Shown here piece after piece: positions 9,001 to 36,000 of a stretch of 64,000 nt of DNA. Source of the DNA: an uncultured Bdellovibrionales bacterium (GTDB lineage Bacteria; Patescibacteriota; Minisyncoccia; Moranbacterales; UBA1568); NCBI GenBank assembly GCA_964428075.1, contig CAYRWQ010000001.1, forward strand, positions 1,806-65,805. Direction: 5' to 3'. Positions within the stretch are counted from its first letter, which is position 1. The number at the start of each line of letters is the position of its first letter. The position numbers are program-made.

Positions 9001-12000
9001 AAAATCATCAGATCCTATCAGACAAAATGGACTATCTCATCGAACATCCTGAAATACGCACGCAATTCGGGGAAAATGCACAGCAAGAAGTATTGGAAAA
9101 ATTCTCTTGGAACCGCGCTATCGCACAATATCTGAGCATCTTTCGCGTACTCCTTGAGACTGAAAGGAAAAAATAGTGCATCACTCGTGACAAATGTATT
9201 GGTTATATCATGAACGTATATGTGCGGTATCACCGGAAAAATCTCCCTAACACAGAAAAGAGTCTCCGTCCAAGAAATCATGGTAATGAACGATGCCATC
9301 AGACACCGAGGTCCGGATGATGGCGGAACCTATCTATCACCGGATCAGAAAATCGGTCTTGGACATCGTCGTCTCTCCATCATCGATCTCTCCCCTCTCG
9401 GTCATCAGCCCATGCGCTATCTGAATCGCTACGAAATTGTCTTCAATGGTGAGATTTACAATTTCCAAGAAAAACGCGAGGAACTGCAAAAGGCAGGGTA
9501 CACCTTCCGGTCCCATTCCGACACCGAAGTGATTCTCGCGCTCTATGATAAATACCGAGCAGGATGCCTCAAACATCTCCGAGGTATGTTCGCTTTCGCT
9601 CTCTATGATGAGCAAGAGCGTGTTCTCTTCGCCGCCCGTGACCGCGTCGGGAAAAAACCATTCAAGTATTTTTTCAATGGTCAGGTTTTTCTGTTTGCTT
9701 CAGAACTCAAAGCTATTCTCACTCAGCCAGAATATACACGGGAGCCAGATTACGAGGCCATTCACCATTACCTCACACTCCAATATGTCCCCGCACCTCT
9801 CACGGGTTTCAAAAACATCCAGAAACTCGAACCGGCGCATTCACTCTCACTCGACCTCAAAACGGGAAAGTTAGAAAAAAACCGTTACTGGAAAATTGAT
9901 GCTTCTGAAAAACTCGATCTCTCTGAATCAGAATGGAAAACACGTATCATTGATAAACTCGATGAATCAACTCGTCTTCGCATGATTTCAGACGTCCCAA
10001 TCGGAGCCTTTCTCTCAGGAGGTGTCGATTCAAGCGCGATTGTTGCCATGATGACCCGTCATTCCCATACGCCCATCAAAACTTTCTCCATCGGATTCAA
10101 AGAAGAGAAATTTAGCGAGCTCCCGTATGCAAAAATGATCTCCGAGCGATTCGCCACGGATCATACGGAGTTCATCGTCGAGCCACGCGCCATCGATCTG
10201 CTCCCGATGCTAGTCAAACACTACGAAGAACCGTATGCCGATTCGAGCGCACTCCCAACTTACTTTGTTTCCAAGCTCACCCGTGAACACGTCACCGTGG
10301 CACTCAATGGTGATGGCGGGGACGAAAACTTCGCTGGCTATAGCCGTTACAGCGCGTTTCAGCTCTCACTACTCTGCGAGCGATTCATCTGGCTCCACCA
10401 GCATATCGGCACCCCCCTCACCAAAACGGCCGCCAAGATGATACGAAATACGCTCTTTGATCGTCTCCATCGCTTCACTCGATCGCTTTCTCTTGACTAT
10501 CGCAAACGGTATATGGATTATACCGCGTATTTCACCGATACCCAGAAAGCCGCACTCTATACCGATACGTTCAAGCATCGGGTCGGACAACGATATACCT
10601 CAGAACTGATCGCTCAATCCTTTAGTCACGCGGGATCAACCGATCGTACCGAGCAAGCAGTCTACGCGGATTACGCCACCTATCTTCCAGACGATCTCCT
10701 GGTCAAGGTCGATATGGCGACCATGGCAGTTGCTCTCGAAGGCAGATCGCCATTTCTTGATCACGAAATGCTTGAACTCTCAGCTCAAATTCCGTTTCAT
10801 CTCAAAATCAAAGGGTTGAACAACAAAAAATACATCCTCAAAGAAGCGCTCCGCGGTGTTCTTCCTGACGAGATATTACTTCGTCCAAAAATGGGTTTTG
10901 GTGTTCCAATCGACATATGGTTCCGTAATGAACTCAAGGACTATGCTCACGAAAAACTCCTGCATGGACACCTCGTAAAAGACCGACTCTTCCGTCCGGA
11001 ATATATCAAGTTTATCCTTGATCGACATTGCTCTACCAATATAAACTTCGCGCCTCATATTTGGGCCCTCCTCACGCTCGAACTCTGGTTTGAGGAATAC
11101 TTCAATTAAACGCTATGGCCAAACCGATCACCGTGATCATGTCCGTCTATAATGAACAGTCCGCCTATCTGACGGCGTCCATCGACAGTATACTGCATCA
11201 GTCCTATACGAACTTTGAGTTCATTATCATGAATGATGGGTCCAATTTCCCGCACATAGCACCGATATTACTGCAATATGCGCAACAAGATGATCGGATC
11301 ATACTCCTGAACAACACTACCAATCTCGGACTTACCGCCGCTCTCAACACAGCACTTACTCAAGCCACTGGAAAATACATCGCTAGAATGGATAGCGATG
11401 ATATCGCGCATTCCACTCGACTCGAAAAACAGTTTCAGTTTATGGAACAACACGCGCAGTATGCACTGTGCGGCTCTTGGGTTCTCCTCATCAATGAACA
11501 TGATCTCCCTACTGGAGAGAAAAAATCCCCAACTACCACGGAGGACATCAAAAAAAACCTGCTATGGTACAATTTTTTTACCCATTCTTCCCTGTTTTTC
11601 CGACGGGAAACAGCTCTCCTCATGCATGGCTATGACCCGTACTTCAAAAAAGCTCAAGATTATGATTTTCTCCTGAGGATCTCAGCCAAACATCCGGTCG
11701 CCATTCTTCCAGAATTTCTCTTATCCCTTCGACTGCACCAGCACAGTGTTTCTGTTCGTTCAAAAAAGGTGCAGGAACAATACGCAATCCGTGCACGCTG
11801 GAACGCTATTCGAAACTATGGGTATCCCAAGATTGATGCTTTCAAAATCATACCATCGATCATATACTTCTTTCTCATTCCAACCTGCCTGAAAGAAAAA
11901 ATATTCGATATTCTGTATAAGAAAAAATAGATACAAAAACCGATGTTTCTCCTCCAGGAATTCCTCAAGTCATTCGTCACAAGTCAAAAGATCCGTATCG

Positions 12001-33000: not shown

Positions 33001-36000
33001 TGCTTTCCACTCTCTGAGACACTACAAAACGATGAAAAATCGTTTCTAGATCCTTCCAAAAGAGTCCTGCTACGGCTTGACCCATGAAGCGATCACGAAC
33101 GAAAATAGATCCGGCTCTCGCAATCTCCTCCAGCTGCTCCGGTTGCGTCTGATAATAACGAATCTTCTCCACCAAATCTGCCATATCATCCTTTGCGTAG
33201 GCCACATAGTGTACCCCAGGCATTAATCCAAGATTCGTATACATGGGATCATCGATACCAAAAAAAGCACTGCCACACGCCATGCCCTCAAAGACATTCG
33301 TTGAAGGGAGACCAATATTTTCTTCAGGGCACACAAACATCCGATAGTGATTGTATTTTTGTACCACATCAAAGGCATAATATTTTTTATGCTGATTCGC
33401 GAGCACTAACTTCTGAATAAAACGTGGTGCATATTGTTTGACCATTTTTAAAAAGAGGGAATCATCGGCATTTTCCCGCATAAAGGTGAAATTCTCATAC
33501 TGCTTAATCATGGAATCAAGCGCGTCGGGATACGCCCTGTGTGTTTCCATGATTGTCTTACGCATCGGCTGAAGGACATCGGTTCCAAAGAAACTGATGA
33601 AATCGAGATTCTTCTTGTCGATAGGCGCGATGGTGCCAAGAGCGAAACATTTATTGAGCCGCGATACAAAGCTGGTTTTCTTCTGAAAACGACTCGTAAA
33701 AGTGAATGGGAGTTGATAGACCCACTGTATAGTCGGAAAATGTTTTTTGAAATAAGGAACATTCGTTAAATCGTTTTCCGATACCAGGAGTGTGGGTGAT
33801 TCGAACTGCAGGCTGTTCGCGATATCCTCTGGGTGTAGATAGTAGTGTGTCAAAACAACCACTTTCATGCCCTTGAACACTGGAACATTTGCCTGTTTTG
33901 ATACACCCACATTTGCTCTAGCAAAATCCACTACCACATCACGCTTTGGATCAAGCTGGCTCTGATCAAAATAGATCTTGTGTTTAAACGGGTTGATTCC
34001 ATTGAGAAGCATCCATACACACAGTTCAAGAAACACGAAAAATTTTGGAAAAAACGGAAAGCCGATCTTCACCGCGGCAAAAGACGTCTTGGTTCCATCG
34101 ATATAGAGAGCGGTTTCCCGATTATCATCTTTCAGATAATATTCCAAAAAGTAATGGTACTTCATGAAATCCTTACGCCCTAAGAGGACGTTCACGACGG
34201 TTTTCCCGTAACTATAGTAATGTGGATTGACTAAAACGAGACGCATACAGGTCATTTGCTATTCCACACCCCGACACCCTTACCGAAATCATGCGAAAGC
34301 AGATCAAAAGGTTCGAAAAACTTTTCCAGAATATGCAGGCAAGCCTCTGCTACAGCGCCTTCACCTCCTCGAGCGTGAGTGATATAGTCCGCCACCTCTT
34401 TCGTTTTGTAGAAAGCGTTGGCAGGGGCAATACCATAGGCCACGTCCCGGAACACTAATGGATCGAACATCCCATCCCCCATATATATGGTTTCTTCCAA
34501 ATTGAATCTCTCTCTGATCCATGCGACCCGATCAAAGGTACTCACCAAATCAAGCGGTAAGCCCATATCATCCGCTATTCTTTTCTGAGTAATACCAAAA
34601 CCTCTTTTATCGCCGGTAACGGCATGAATGACGAGCTTCCCCTTCAGTAGATCCAGAGCATCATTATCCTCCGGACCAAATTGCTTCATCACCTTCCCGT
34701 CAACCGTATAGTAAAACTTTCCATCCGTAAAAACCCCATCCACGTCTAATATGAAATTCTTCAAGACATGTTTTGCTGTATCCATACTGAAATCGTTCTA
34801 CTGTTTTTGATGCTCTGATTCAATCCGCCCATCCCTTCGGTCGGTATCGTCTTCTATACGAATGACATCGTCTACTTCAGGCGTAGAAACTTCTTGCAAG
34901 ATGATATCCGTCAACGCGATAACCCTGTGTTTCCGTGGTGGGATAACATTGAAAAAATCATTCGCCCGCATATGCATCTTCTCAACTTCTCCAGATTCAT
35001 TTTCAAGCCACACCTCGGCTTCACCAGCAATGATATAATTTGTCTCTCGTTTCTTTTCATGATACTGAAAGCTCGTTCGATGACCGGCCGTGATACTGAT
35101 CCTCTTATAACAATATCGGTCATTCAATTCTAACCATATTTCCTCTCCCCATGGTTTGATAACGCGTTTCGGAAACTCATTACTACTGCTCATAGTGTTC
35201 TATGATCTCTGTAAGTGAATTAATAATGGATTCTTTAATATCCTCACGTTCTGAAAGCTCACCAATGATCTTCTTATAACTCTCAGAACTGAAACGATAG
35301 TGCCCGGCAATCACGGCGCACAGAAACTTATTATCTGGGGTATTATTATGCATCCACTTCTTCCATTTCCCACTCGCATAGACATCGTCCAAAAACTCCT
35401 GGAAATCTATACCATAGATCAAACACTTCGTAAGAACCAATTGTGTCTGCACAACACCAATTTGAGGCGCGATGTTCCGCGCGTCTACCAGGCCCTTCCG
35501 GATCTGAATTTCCGCCTGAGTAAGGTAATCATCATTATGCTCTTTCAGCTTCATGCCTTTTCGATGAAGCAACTCCGCTATTTTTTCAGTAAACTCACGA
35601 TTAAAGTTTCCGGCCTGATTGATCTCTTTCACCAAACTTCCAGTCTGGACCACATAGAACTCCGGAGTATAAACCGCTTTGAAATAATCAATTTCCCGCT
35701 CGATCTCAGCAATATTCGGTAAATTATAGTTGGATCCCAGATTTTCATCAGTCCCTATTTCCAGCAGGATATTGGGATTGAGACTCAAAGCAAACTCAAC
35801 AGCCTTTTTGGATTCCATCAGTGCCCCATCCTTCGTCCCCTTGAAGTGACAGTAATCAATATGGATGAGATCAAATCCGTTCTCGATATCATCACGAATC
35901 GTATCGTAAGTATCGGTCAAATCATAATTACCATTGAAGCCCGGGCCACAATGGTCACGACATATGAGCACATCGCTGTGTTCATATGTCGTACGCATAT

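What the first reader, a model, noticed from the sequence alone, without database searches (positions are those of the whole stretch)
11943..34255. Lineage-specific duplication of glycosyltransferase modules: four diverged paralog pairs
Protein-level paralog pairs are evident. The GT-B pair 11943..12977 and 31937..32962 is collinear from the RIGF(V/I)LDV start. The CgeB-like pair is 28482..29765 and 32972..34255. The GT4 pair is 8004..9176 and 16791..17939. The GtrB-like pair is 1464..2408 and 23587..24543. In the second copy the GT-B and CgeB-like genes are convergent neighbours (31937..34255), whereas in the first they are 15 kb apart. The DNA is diverged, so no recent repeat is involved. 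This indicates old in-locus module duplication and neofunctionalisation, and suggests the glycan has repeating but non-identical linkages.
Basis: seen in the sequence. Interest (0 to 1): 0.5.

Follow-up and report, generated by a model that had tools for sequence, protein, structure and literature searches.

The report
Old glycosyltransferase paralogs in CPR glycan locus
Three of the four claimed glycosyltransferase gene pairs are real but ancient paralogs. They sit in a very large sugar-polymer locus of an uncultured Moranbacteria-like (candidate phyla radiation, CPR) bacterium, related genomes share them, and this kind of paralogy is ordinary in such loci.

Summary
Three of the four pairs are real homologs:
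- GT-B pair: 45% identity.
- CgeB-like pair: 43% identity.
- GT4 pair: 45% identity.

All three align over their full length with E <= 1e-100. The DNA is diverged and synonymous sites are saturated.

The 'GtrB-like' pair is only 22-24% identical. Each member is closer to a third GT2 gene, and the two fall in different subfamilies (ArnC-like and AglJ-like), so it is not a duplicate pair.

The pairs are not specific to this genome. Related metagenomic contigs are collinear with the window, and each copy there is closer to its positional ortholog (52-71%) than to its paralog.

Only the CgeB-like copies form exclusive sister clades, which shows a true old duplication. For GT-B and GT4 the trees are unresolved, and foreign homologs are as close as the paralog. 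Duplication and separate recruitment therefore both remain possible.

There is no duplicated 'GT-B + CgeB' module, because both CgeB-like genes flank the second GT-B copy.

The host is a Moranbacteria-like CPR bacterium. The finding is ordinary biology in a large locus of an unusual organism.

The parts
8004..9176 (+). GT4 glycosyltransferase A1 (390 aa)
   Evidence: Pfam PF00534 at 128 bits and PF13439 at 80 bits. It carries an EX7E motif, EGLPTSVTE, at residue 293. It is 44.6% identical to A2. Orthologs in L003 and L028 are 51-52% identical. The gene is absent from L029 together with AsnB.
16791..17939 (+). GT4 glycosyltransferase A2 (382 aa)
   Evidence: Pfam PF00534 at 135 bits. It carries an EX7E motif, EGLPTSVLE, at residue 288. 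Orthologs are 66% identical in L003, 70% in L007, 64% in L028 and 56% in L029.
11943..12977 (+). Pfam-unassigned GT-B enzyme, copy C1 (344 aa)
   Evidence: No Pfam or NCBIfam hit reaches the cut-off. The AF2 model has pLDDT 89 and a GT-B fold. The best Foldseek hit in the PDB is ManT 7qsg with TM 0.71. It belongs to a clade of 22 sequences with bootstrap 0.86. Orthologs are 59-68% identical.
31937..32962 (+). GT-B enzyme, copy C2 (341 aa from ATG 31937)
   Evidence: It is 45% identical to C1 and lacks a 13-residue insertion that the C1 clade has. It has its own clade of 10 sequences with bootstrap 1.0. Orthologs are 59-67% identical. It is convergent with 32972-34255.
28482..29765 (-). CgeB-like / GT90-like GT-B enzyme E1 (427 aa)
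   Evidence: Pfam PF13524 at 33.9 bits and PF05686 at 26.7 bits. The AF2 model has pLDDT 91. Orthologs are 61-63% identical.
32972..34255 (-). CgeB-like / GT90-like GT-B enzyme E2 (427 aa)
   Evidence: Pfam PF13524 at 38.2 bits and PF05686 at 29.3 bits. It is 42.8% identical to E1. Its clade of 9 sequences has bootstrap 0.93 and is sister to the E1 clade. Orthologs are 55% identical in L004 and 71% in L024.
1464..2408 (-). ArnC/PgfS-like polyprenyl-phosphate glycosyltransferase (GT2 plus 2 C-terminal TM helices)
   Evidence: NCBIfam NF007986 at 176 bits. Transmembrane helices lie at about residues 234-292. Its ortholog in L003 and L028 is 79% identical. It is only 22% identical to 23587-24543.
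23587..24543 (-). AglJ/DPM1-like polyprenyl-phosphate glycosyltransferase (GT2 plus 2 C-terminal TM helices)
   Evidence: NCBIfam TIGR04182 at 250 bits. Transmembrane helices lie at about residues 243-295. Orthologs are 74-78% identical in L004 and L024.
18915..20480 (+). Fused double SAM methyltransferase; its N-half (D1) is a paralog of 25452-26249
   Evidence: Pfam finds two methyltransferase domains. The N-half is 50.6% identical to 25452-26249. In L028 the two halves are separate genes of 267 and 219 aa.
25452..26249 (+). SAM methyltransferase D2 (265 aa)
   Evidence: Pfam PF08241. Orthologs are 68-69% identical in L004 and L024. Homologs lie next to the GT-B family in other phyla.
11115..11930 (+). 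GT2 glycosyltransferase B1 (271 aa), paralog of 22768-23562
   Evidence: It is 29.9% identical over 264 aa, E 2e-34. Both B1 and B2 orthologs are present in L029.
22768..23562 (+). GT2 glycosyltransferase B2 (264 aa)
   Evidence: Pfam PF00535. Orthologs are 54-65% identical in L004, L024 and L029.
30497..31777 (-). Wzx-type flippase candidate lying between E1 and C2
   Evidence: Pfam PF01943 at 30.4 bits. About 10 hydrophobic segments are predicted. Orthologs are 69-73% identical in L004 and L024.
12974..16794 (+). Two polytopic membrane proteins without family assignment (560 aa and 681 aa); candidate polymerase or GT-C-type enzymes
   Evidence: Neither protein has a Pfam or NCBIfam hit. At least 9 hydrophobic segments are predicted in each. 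Both are conserved in L003, L007 and L028.
34252..39949 (.). Conserved activated-sugar operon next to E2: KdsC-like phosphatase, cupin, GatZ-like protein, 528-aa nucleotidyltransferase, shikimate-dehydrogenase-like protein and ROK kinase
   Evidence: Family assignments come from Pfam and NCBIfam. The genes are 66-86% identical and collinear in L004 and L024. In L025 the five genes from the phosphatase to the shikimate-dehydrogenase-like gene are 57-78% identical, and the ROK gene is only listed by Pfam there.

Best explanation
The window carries a roughly 45-60 kb glycan-biosynthesis super-locus of an uncultured Moranbacteria-like (Patescibacteria/CPR) bacterium. It holds about 20 glycosyltransferase genes, 5 methyltransferase genes with 6 SAM-methyltransferase domains, a Wzx flippase, two polyprenyl-phosphate sugar synthases, GT-C-like membrane proteins and sugar-activation genes.

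Within the locus, five enzyme families occur twice: GT4, a Pfam-less GT-B family, a CgeB/GT90-like family, a SAM-methyltransferase family and a GT2 family. These are ancient paralogs of 30-51% amino-acid identity with saturated synonymous sites. They were fixed before the divergence of several related genomes that keep the same gene order.

The pairs arose gene by gene at different times, not through one segmental 'module' duplication.
- The CgeB-like pair is a genuine local duplication on either side of the flippase and the second GT-B gene.
- The second copies of GT-B, GT4 and the methyltransferase are either equally old duplications or homologs recruited from the cross-phylum pool of 'GT-B + methyltransferase' genes.

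Inferred, not shown: each retained copy adds a different sugar or linkage, or acts on a differently methylated acceptor, during assembly of a complex methylated surface heteropolysaccharide on a polyprenyl carrier.
For: - Homology of the pairs: BLASTP E values from 1e-102 to 1e-122. Only short residual DNA similarity remains, and pS is 0.72-0.88.
- Conserved synteny. L003 and L028 are collinear with window 128-20480 (L028 as far as about 23000). L004 and L024 are collinear with 17936/20563 to 39949-45883. The left/right junction is kept in L024 and L028. Orthologs are always closer than paralogs.
- CgeB-like family: sister clades with bootstrap 0.79 and 0.93.
- GT-B family: separate clades with bootstrap 0.86 and 1.0, but joint monophyly in only 26% of replicates.
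- GT4 family: about ten foreign 50%-cluster representatives rank above the paralog.
- Different ages. B1 and B2 are both present in L029, whereas the A1+AsnB cassette is absent there. L025 has E2 only.
- Both copies keep their family motifs. A1 and A2 have EX7E. C1 and C2 keep all 70 invariant columns of alignment A1. E1 and E2 keep E310, E311 and E322.
- GC content is homogeneous across genes (0.455 +/- 0.024), so there is no sign of recent foreign DNA.
- Folds: AF2 pLDDT 89 and 91, with GT-B matches.
- Host: the ClpC-like protein is 66-69% identical to its nearest hits, of which the named ones are Candidatus Moranbacteria (68%). The neighbourhood 49198-63999 is collinear with contigs L026 and L027, which carry one of those Moranbacteria-named proteins (P0207).
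Against: - The trees are neighbour-joining on Kimura distances, and deep nodes are unresolved. A true sister relationship of the GT-B or GT4 copies is therefore not excluded.
- The related genomes are incomplete MAGs or contigs. The apparent absence of a copy (C2 in the L003 genome, A1 in L029, E1 in L025) could be loss or missing assembly.
- Taxon labels conflict. Three related GTDB records are titled 'uncultured Bdellovibrionales' and one 'Patescibacteria'.
- No biochemical data exist for any of these families, so the glycan product and any functional divergence are inference only.
Confidence: 0.7

Rival explanations
1. A single lineage duplicated glycosyltransferase modules inside the locus (GT-B together with CgeB-like, plus GT4 and GtrB-like), and the copies then neofunctionalised.
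For: - Three pairs are 43-45% identical over their full length and are reciprocal best hits within the window.
- The CgeB-like clades are sisters.
- The paralogs A, C and D are slightly closer to each other (45-51%) than to the single-copy homologs of the compact cluster L012 (35-49%).
- C1+C2 is the most frequent of the groupings tested in the bootstrap replicates: 26% alone, and a further 19.5% when P0023 is included.
Against: - Each copy has its own orthologs in at least 3-4 other genomes at higher identity.
- There is no GT-B/CgeB unit, because both CgeB-like genes lie next to C2.
- The paralogs are not collinear and differ widely in divergence (30-51%).
- The GtrB-like 'pair' belongs to two different subfamilies.
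- Foreign GT4 and GT-B homologs are as close as the paralogs.
Confidence: 0.2
2. Cluster fusion or horizontal recruitment. The locus is a merger of two once-separate glycan clusters: a left cluster (about 6088-20480) and a right cluster (about 20563-39949). Each brought its own GT-B, methyltransferase and GT2 genes, so most 'pairs' are xenologs and not duplicates.
For: - In L003 the left cluster ends after the double methyltransferase and continues with GtrA, UbiA and PHP genes instead of the right cluster. The GTDB scan found only a C1-type gene in that genome and only a C2-type gene in the L004 genome.
- The GT-B family with its methyltransferases occurs in at least 10 differently labelled phylum-level groups at 39-45% identity. 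These homologs are as close to C1 and C2 as C1 and C2 are to each other.
- A1+AsnB behaves as an insertable two-gene cassette, being absent in L029.
Against: - The composite arrangement is conserved in the window, L024 and L028.
- GC content is homogeneous.
- The GT4 pair lies entirely in the left half and the CgeB-like pair entirely in the right half, so fusion cannot explain those two pairs.
- The MAGs are incomplete.
Confidence: 0.3
3. The similarities are only the family-level background expected among any GT-B or GT2 enzymes in a crowded glycan locus, and they have no specific pairwise history.
For: This holds for the GtrB-like pair (22-24% identity, different subfamilies). It also matches the many weak cross-hits among GT4 and GT2 genes in the window, such as 16791 vs 21638 at 29%.
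Against: The three main pairs and the methyltransferase pair are 43-51% identical end to end with E <= 1e-100. That is far above the 22-29% seen among the other GT4 and GT2 genes of the same window.
Confidence: 0.03

Closest known systems
Paralogous glycosyltransferases in bacterial O-antigen, capsule and EPS (Wzx/Wzy-type) loci
   Same: The locus is one large cluster containing many GT4 and GT2 genes, a Wzx-type flippase, sugar-nucleotide genes, and modification enzymes (methyltransferases, a carbamoyltransferase and an AsnB-like amidotransferase). Several glycosyltransferases are diverged paralogs.
   Different: The host is a Moranbacteria-like CPR bacterium. No recognisable Wzy polymerase or initiating phosphoglycosyl transferase was identified. 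Two unassigned polytopic membrane proteins and a PMT_2-type GT-C protein are present instead.
CAZy family GT4 retaining glycosyltransferases (e.g. ManT 7qsg, MshA, BshA, PimA)
   Same: A1 and A2 are canonical GT4 enzymes by Pfam and carry the EX7E motif. The models of C1/C2 and E1/E2 have the two-Rossmann GT-B fold, and their best structural matches are GT4 enzymes.
   Different: C1 and C2 fall below the Pfam GT4 thresholds. At the position of EX7E they carry N-x-G-H-S-F-x-K-I-G-x-P-M. They are only 11-16% identical to the solved GT4 enzymes listed.
CgeB-like (Pfam PF13524) and GT90/POGLUT-like (PF05686) glycosyltransferases
   Same: E1 and E2 pass both Pfam gathering scores in their C-terminal ~100 residues. 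A profile of the family hits POGLUT2 and POGLUT1.
   Different: The match covers only the C-terminal nucleotide-binding part. The N-terminal domain has no assigned family, and structural TM scores to solved proteins are only 0.4-0.5. No functional link to spore maturation or to protein O-glucosylation has been shown.
Mycobacterial methylmannose polysaccharide system (ManT with the methyltransferases MeT1 and pMeT3; PMC9883506)
   Same: A GT-B enzyme is genetically linked to two SAM methyltransferases. This linkage is seen for the C1/C2 family in many phyla. ManT is the top structural hit.
   Different: The ManT hit is not distinguishable from other GT4 hits (E values from 4e-12 to 1e-10). The methyltransferases match only generic class I methyltransferases. 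No MmpH-like hydrolase gene was looked for, and the ribose-binding Glu that is essential in ManT is not conserved. This is an analogy only.

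Membership tests
Paralog pair produced by duplication within this lineage | Full-length, highly significant pairwise homology, with the two genes as reciprocal best hits within the genome window | tested here: met
   Met for the GT-B, CgeB-like, GT4 and methyltransferase pairs (43-51% identity, E <= 1e-100). Not met for the GtrB-like pair (22%, each member closer to 6918-7610).
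Paralog pair produced by duplication within this lineage | The two copies, with their orthologs, form exclusive sister clades in the family tree | tested here: inconclusive
   CgeB-like: yes, the joint split has bootstrap 0.79. GT-B: joint split in 26% of replicates. GT4: backbone unresolved, and about ten foreign representatives are closer to A1 than A2 is. The trees are neighbour-joining only.
Paralog pair produced by duplication within this lineage | The duplication is restricted to this genome or species ('lineage-specific' in the narrow sense) | tested here: not met
   Both members of each pair have positional orthologs in L003, L004, L024 and L028 at 52-71% identity.
Segmental (module) duplication | Duplicated genes keep their relative order and adjacency in both copies | tested here: not met
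   The order is B1-C1-...-D1 in the left half and B2-...-D2-...-C2 in the right half. Both GT4 copies are in the left half. Both CgeB-like copies flank C2 and none is near C1.
CAZy GT4 (Pfam Glycos_transf_1 / Glyco_transf_4) | Pfam domain scores above the gathering threshold, plus the EX7E motif | tested here: met
   Met for A1 and A2: PF00534 at 128 and 135 bits, with motifs EGLPTSVTE and EGLPTSVLE.
CAZy GT4 (applied to the GT-B pair C1/C2) | Pfam domain scores above the gathering threshold, plus the EX7E motif | tested here: not met
   C1 scores 20.1 bits on PF13439 against a cut-off of 28.5, and C2 has no hit. There is no EX7E at the homologous site. The GT-B fold itself is met, with pLDDT 89 and TM 0.71.
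CgeB-like PF13524 / GT90 PF05686 | Pfam score above the gathering threshold | tested here: met
   E1 scores 33.9 and 26.7 bits and E2 scores 38.2 and 29.3 bits, against cut-offs of 25 and 24. Only the C-terminal ~100 residues are covered.
GtrB/ArnC-type polyprenyl-phosphate glycosyltransferase | An N-terminal GT2 domain plus two C-terminal transmembrane helices, and membership of the same subfamily for both genes | tested here: not met
   Both genes have the architecture. The subfamilies differ: ArnC/PgfS-like for 1464-2408 and AglJ-like for 23587-24543. All scores are below the equivalog cut-offs.
Neofunctionalised paralogs (distinct donor or acceptor specificity) | Demonstrated difference in substrate or linkage between the copies | not testable with these tools
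   Only indirect hints exist. The C1 clade has a 13-residue insertion in the N-domain. The N- and C-domains are about equally diverged. dN/dS cannot be computed because dS is saturated.

The most novel reading that the evidence does not exclude
The Pfam-less GT-B family (C1/C2) lacks the GT4 EX7E signature. In many bacterial phyla it sits beside one or two specific SAM methyltransferases. Together they may form a previously undescribed, horizontally mobile 'glycosyl-transfer plus O-methylation' module. Under this reading, this Moranbacteria-like CPR lineage carries two such modules within a roughly 50-kb locus and uses them to build a heavily methylated surface polysaccharide, functionally analogous to the mycobacterial polymethylated polysaccharides.
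Probability: 0.2. Interest if true: 0.5.

Novelty: new member of a known kind. Interest (0 to 1): 0.22.

Why it matters
Diverged glycosyltransferase paralogs are a routine feature of polysaccharide loci, so the finding itself changes little. Its use is mainly practical.
- It shows that pairs of this kind should be dated with orthologs from relatives before they are called lineage-specific.
- It documents that a small-genome CPR bacterium keeps a very large, conserved glycan locus.
- That locus includes two enzyme families (the GT-B family and the CgeB/GT90-like family) with no characterised member, which are candidates for future study of the CPR cell surface.

Tried and rejected
Nei-Gojobori pS is 0.72-0.88 for all pairs, so dS is saturated or undefined and the ratio means nothing.
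- Domain-wise divergence as a sign of changed acceptor specificity. The N- and C-domains are about equally diverged.
- A link to the methylmannose-polysaccharide system through the methyltransferases. Both methyltransferase types hit only generic class I methyltransferases in the PDB.
- Evidence of recent foreign origin from composition. Per-gene GC is homogeneous.
- Literature on CPR or Moranbacteria glycan loci. Three full-text searches found nothing specific.
- Cluster-member names for taxonomy. None of the looked-up clusters carries a name.
- tRNA search. The window has no tRNA genes.
- The window's own copy 2 of GT-B was not returned by the word-indexed protein search, so I added it to the tree by hand.

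Full report
**1. Observation**

I listed the ORFs and compared 33 ORFs of window 1-40000 with each other by BLASTP. Three of the four claimed pairs are strong, full-length homologs.

| Pair | Coordinates | Identity | Aligned length | E value |
|---|---|---|---|---|
| GT-B (C1/C2) | 11943-12977 vs 31937-32962 | 45.3% | 342 aa | 4e-103 |
| CgeB-like (E1/E2) | 28482-29765 vs 32972-34255 | 42.8% | 428 aa | 3e-122 |
| GT4 (A1/A2) | 8004-9176 vs 16791-17939 | 44.6% | 390 aa | 5e-113 |
| 'GtrB-like' | 1464-2408 vs 23587-24543 | 22.4% | 326 aa | 4e-10 |

- The multiple alignment confirms that C1 and C2 are collinear from RIGFVLDV/RIGFILDV. It also supports the ATG at 31937 as the start of C2.
- The 'GtrB-like' pair is weak. 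Each member is closer to the GT2 gene 6918-7610 (34% and 29%) than to the other.
- NCBIfam assigns 1464-2408 to ArnC/PgfS-like models (176 bits) and 23587-24543 to the AglJ-type model TIGR04182 (250 bits).
- The two share only the general architecture of a GT2 domain plus two C-terminal transmembrane helices. They are therefore not a duplicate pair.
One is a methyltransferase pair: the N-half of the double methyltransferase 18915-20480 vs 25452-26249, 50.6% over 265 aa, E 7e-102. The other is a GT2 pair: 11115-11930 vs 22768-23562, 29.9%, E 2e-34.
- The convergent arrangement of 31937-32962 (+) and 32972-34255 (-) is as described, and so is the 15.5-kb distance between 11943-12977 and 28482-29765.
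- At the DNA level only four short patches of 67-81% identity remain. Codon-aligned nucleotide identity is 52-57% for the four strong pairs.
- The proportion of synonymous differences is 0.72-0.88, which is saturation.

**2. What the genes are**

- Pfam and NCBIfam scans show one very large glycan locus. It has about 20 glycosyltransferase genes (GT2, GT4 and a PMT_2-type GT-C) and five methyltransferase genes with six SAM-methyltransferase domains.
- The same locus also has a Wzx-like flippase, an AsnB-like amidotransferase, a carbamoyltransferase, several epimerases/dehydratases and a UDP-glucose dehydrogenase. Two unassigned polytopic membrane proteins are present as well.
- A1 and A2 are canonical GT4 enzymes with EX7E motifs.
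- C1 and C2 belong to a family with no Pfam or NCBIfam assignment.
  - An AlphaFold2 model built from 16 homologs has pLDDT 89 and a GT-B fold.
  - The best PDB matches are GT4 enzymes: ManT 7qsg at TM 0.71, then sucrose-phosphate synthase, MshA and BshA.
  - The EX7E site is replaced by an invariant N-x-G-H-S-F-x-K-I-G-x-P-M.
- E1 and E2 pass the Pfam thresholds of PF13524 (CgeB-like) and PF05686 (GT90) in the C-terminal ~100 residues only.
  - The model has pLDDT 91, with GT-B matches at TM 0.4-0.5.
  - The family keeps E-E-x10-E-G-M-A-C-G.

**3. Host**

- The ClpC-like protein 55962-58499 is 66-69% identical to its nearest hits. The named ones among them are Candidatus Moranbacteria proteins at 68%, and the next tier is Patescibacteria at 45-49%.
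- Window 49198-63999 is collinear at 59-86% identity with the ClpC neighbourhood of contigs L026 and L027, which carry one of those Moranbacteria-named proteins.
- The host is therefore a Moranbacteria-like CPR bacterium.
- Three GTDB records that carry the closest glycan-locus relatives are titled 'uncultured Bdellovibrionales' and one 'Patescibacteria group'. I could not resolve this conflict.

**4. Are the duplications lineage-specific?**

No, not at the level of this genome.
- L003 (GCA_964579335.1) and L028 are collinear with window 128-20480, and L028 continues to about 23000.
- L004 (GCA_964597355.1) is collinear with 20563-45883.
- L024 is collinear with 17936-39949. The junction between the 'left' and 'right' halves is kept in L024 and L028 (BLASTP tables).

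In every case the positional ortholog is closer than the paralog.

| Copy | Identity to positional ortholog | Identity to paralog |
|---|---|---|
| A1 | 51-52% | 45% |
| A2 | 64-70% | 45% |
| C1 | 66-68% | 45% |
| C2 | 59-64% | 45% |
| E1 | 61-63% | 43% |
| E2 | 55-71% | 43% |
| D1 | 65-69% | 51% |
| D2 | 68-69% | 51% |

More divergent relatives suggest different ages for the pairs.
- L029 has B1, B2, C1 and A2 but lacks the A1+AsnB cassette.
- L025 has only the E2-type CgeB-like gene.
- L012 is a compact cluster with single A, B, C and D genes.

**5. Are the copies each other's closest relatives?**

- **CgeB-like family.** Of 72 homologs found, 71 entered the tree. The E1 clade (28 sequences) and the E2 clade (9 sequences, bootstrap 0.93) together form an exclusive split with bootstrap 0.79. 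E1-type and E2-type proteins also seem to share four other contigs, judged only from identical longest-contig lengths. This is a genuine old duplication.
- **GT-B family.** This tree used 120 sequences. The C1 clade has 22 sequences (bootstrap 0.86) and the C2 clade has 10 (bootstrap 1.0), but they are not sisters in the NJ tree.
  - An exclusive C1+C2 split appears in 26% of replicates, and in a further 19.5% when P0023 is included.
  - Homologs in MAGs labelled Dehalococcoidaceae, Gammaproteobacteria and Bacteroidetes are 44-45% identical to C1, the same as C2.
- **GT4 family.** In an exhaustive search of 1.84 billion representatives, about ten foreign cluster representatives (45-51% identical) score above A2 (44.6%). 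The tree backbone has no support.

For GT-B and GT4, an ancient duplication and the separate recruitment of a homolog therefore cannot be told apart with the available methods.

**6. Module duplication?**

It is not supported.
- Both CgeB-like genes flank C2, in the order E1, TylF-like methyltransferase, Wzx, C2, E2. In L004 and L024 the order is E1, Wzx, C2, E2.
- No CgeB-like gene lies near C1 in the window or in L003, L007, L028 or L029.
- The paralogs are not collinear between the two halves, and their divergence ranges from 30 to 51%. The pattern is gene-by-gene gain, not one segmental event.
- One association is real. Across the other loci from the GTDB scan (L009-L023), in at least 10 differently labelled phylum-level groups, the C family usually lies within a few kb of homologs of the D-type methyltransferase or of the C-terminal half of 18915-20480.
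- The window therefore holds two C+D sets. The top structural hit, ManT of the mycobacterial methylmannose polysaccharide system (PMC9883506), makes a methylated glycan an attractive idea.
- That hit is not specific, however, and the methyltransferases match only generic class I enzymes.

**7. Verdict**

The paralogy is old, and the CgeB-like pair is clearly a duplication.
- Neofunctionalisation and glycan structure remain inference.
- Paralogous glycosyltransferases in polysaccharide loci are commonplace, so interest is low.
- The points of residual interest are the size and conservation of the locus in a CPR genome and the two uncharacterised GT-B families.

Noticed in passing
window 49198-63999; L026/L027: This stretch (GT4 genes, a Metallophos protein, an epimerase, a Wzz-like protein, ClpC, two unknown proteins and IspH) is collinear at 59-86% identity with contigs L026/L027, which carry P0207, a protein that NCBI names Candidatus Moranbacteria. 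That places the window in a CPR bacterium. GTDB record titles of the closest glycan-locus relatives (L003/L006, L004/L008, L012) nevertheless say 'uncultured Bdellovibrionales', which is probably a mislabel.
   Followed up: partly
window 1-63145: One 64-kb window holds about 20 glycosyltransferase genes and 6 SAM-methyltransferase domains. The organism's phylum usually has genomes of about 1 Mb (from general knowledge), so this is an unusually large investment in glycan synthesis.
   Followed up: no
window 18915-20480; L028 17105-18578: The 521-aa double methyltransferase is a gene fusion. In L028 the two halves are separate adjacent genes of 267 and 219 aa. In other phyla, stand-alone homologs of both halves lie next to the Pfam-less GT-B family.
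   Followed up: partly
window 11943-12977 and 31937-32962: The C1/C2 family lacks the GT4 EX7E motif and has an invariant N-x-G-H-S-F-x-K-I-G-x-P-M in its place. It has no Pfam or NCBIfam model, although it was found in 18 species-representative genomes labelled with at least 10 phylum-level groups.
   Followed up: partly
window 34252-39949: This is a conserved six-gene operon: a KdsC-like phosphatase, a cupin, a GatZ/KbaZ-like protein, a 528-aa nucleotidyltransferase, a shikimate-dehydrogenase-like protein and a ROK kinase. It is 66-86% identical in L004 and L024, and most of it is also conserved in L025. It looks like a pathway for an unidentified activated sugar or polyol.
   Followed up: no
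window 1-64000: GC skew is negative (-0.09 to -0.31) across the whole window, whichever strand the genes are on. Most genes in 6-28 kb are therefore coded on the C-rich strand.
   Followed up: no
window 8004-11109; L029 8207-9371: The GT4 A1 + AsnB-like amidotransferase pair behaves as a two-gene cassette. In L029 the DUF2304 gene is followed directly by the B1 GT2 gene, with nothing between them.
   Followed up: partly
window 27446-28450 and 29802-30500: The unassigned 334-aa ORF and the TylF-like methyltransferase have no counterpart at these positions in L004 or L024. Those loci have a 224-aa methyltransferase at a different spot in this interval, next to the GT4-like gene, and E1 directly adjacent to Wzx. 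These are the real recent gene-content differences in the locus.
   Followed up: no
window 12974-16794: Two conserved polytopic membrane proteins (560 aa and 681 aa, each with at least 9 hydrophobic segments) match no Pfam or NCBIfam family. They are candidates for the missing polymerase or GT-C-type enzymes.
   Followed up: no
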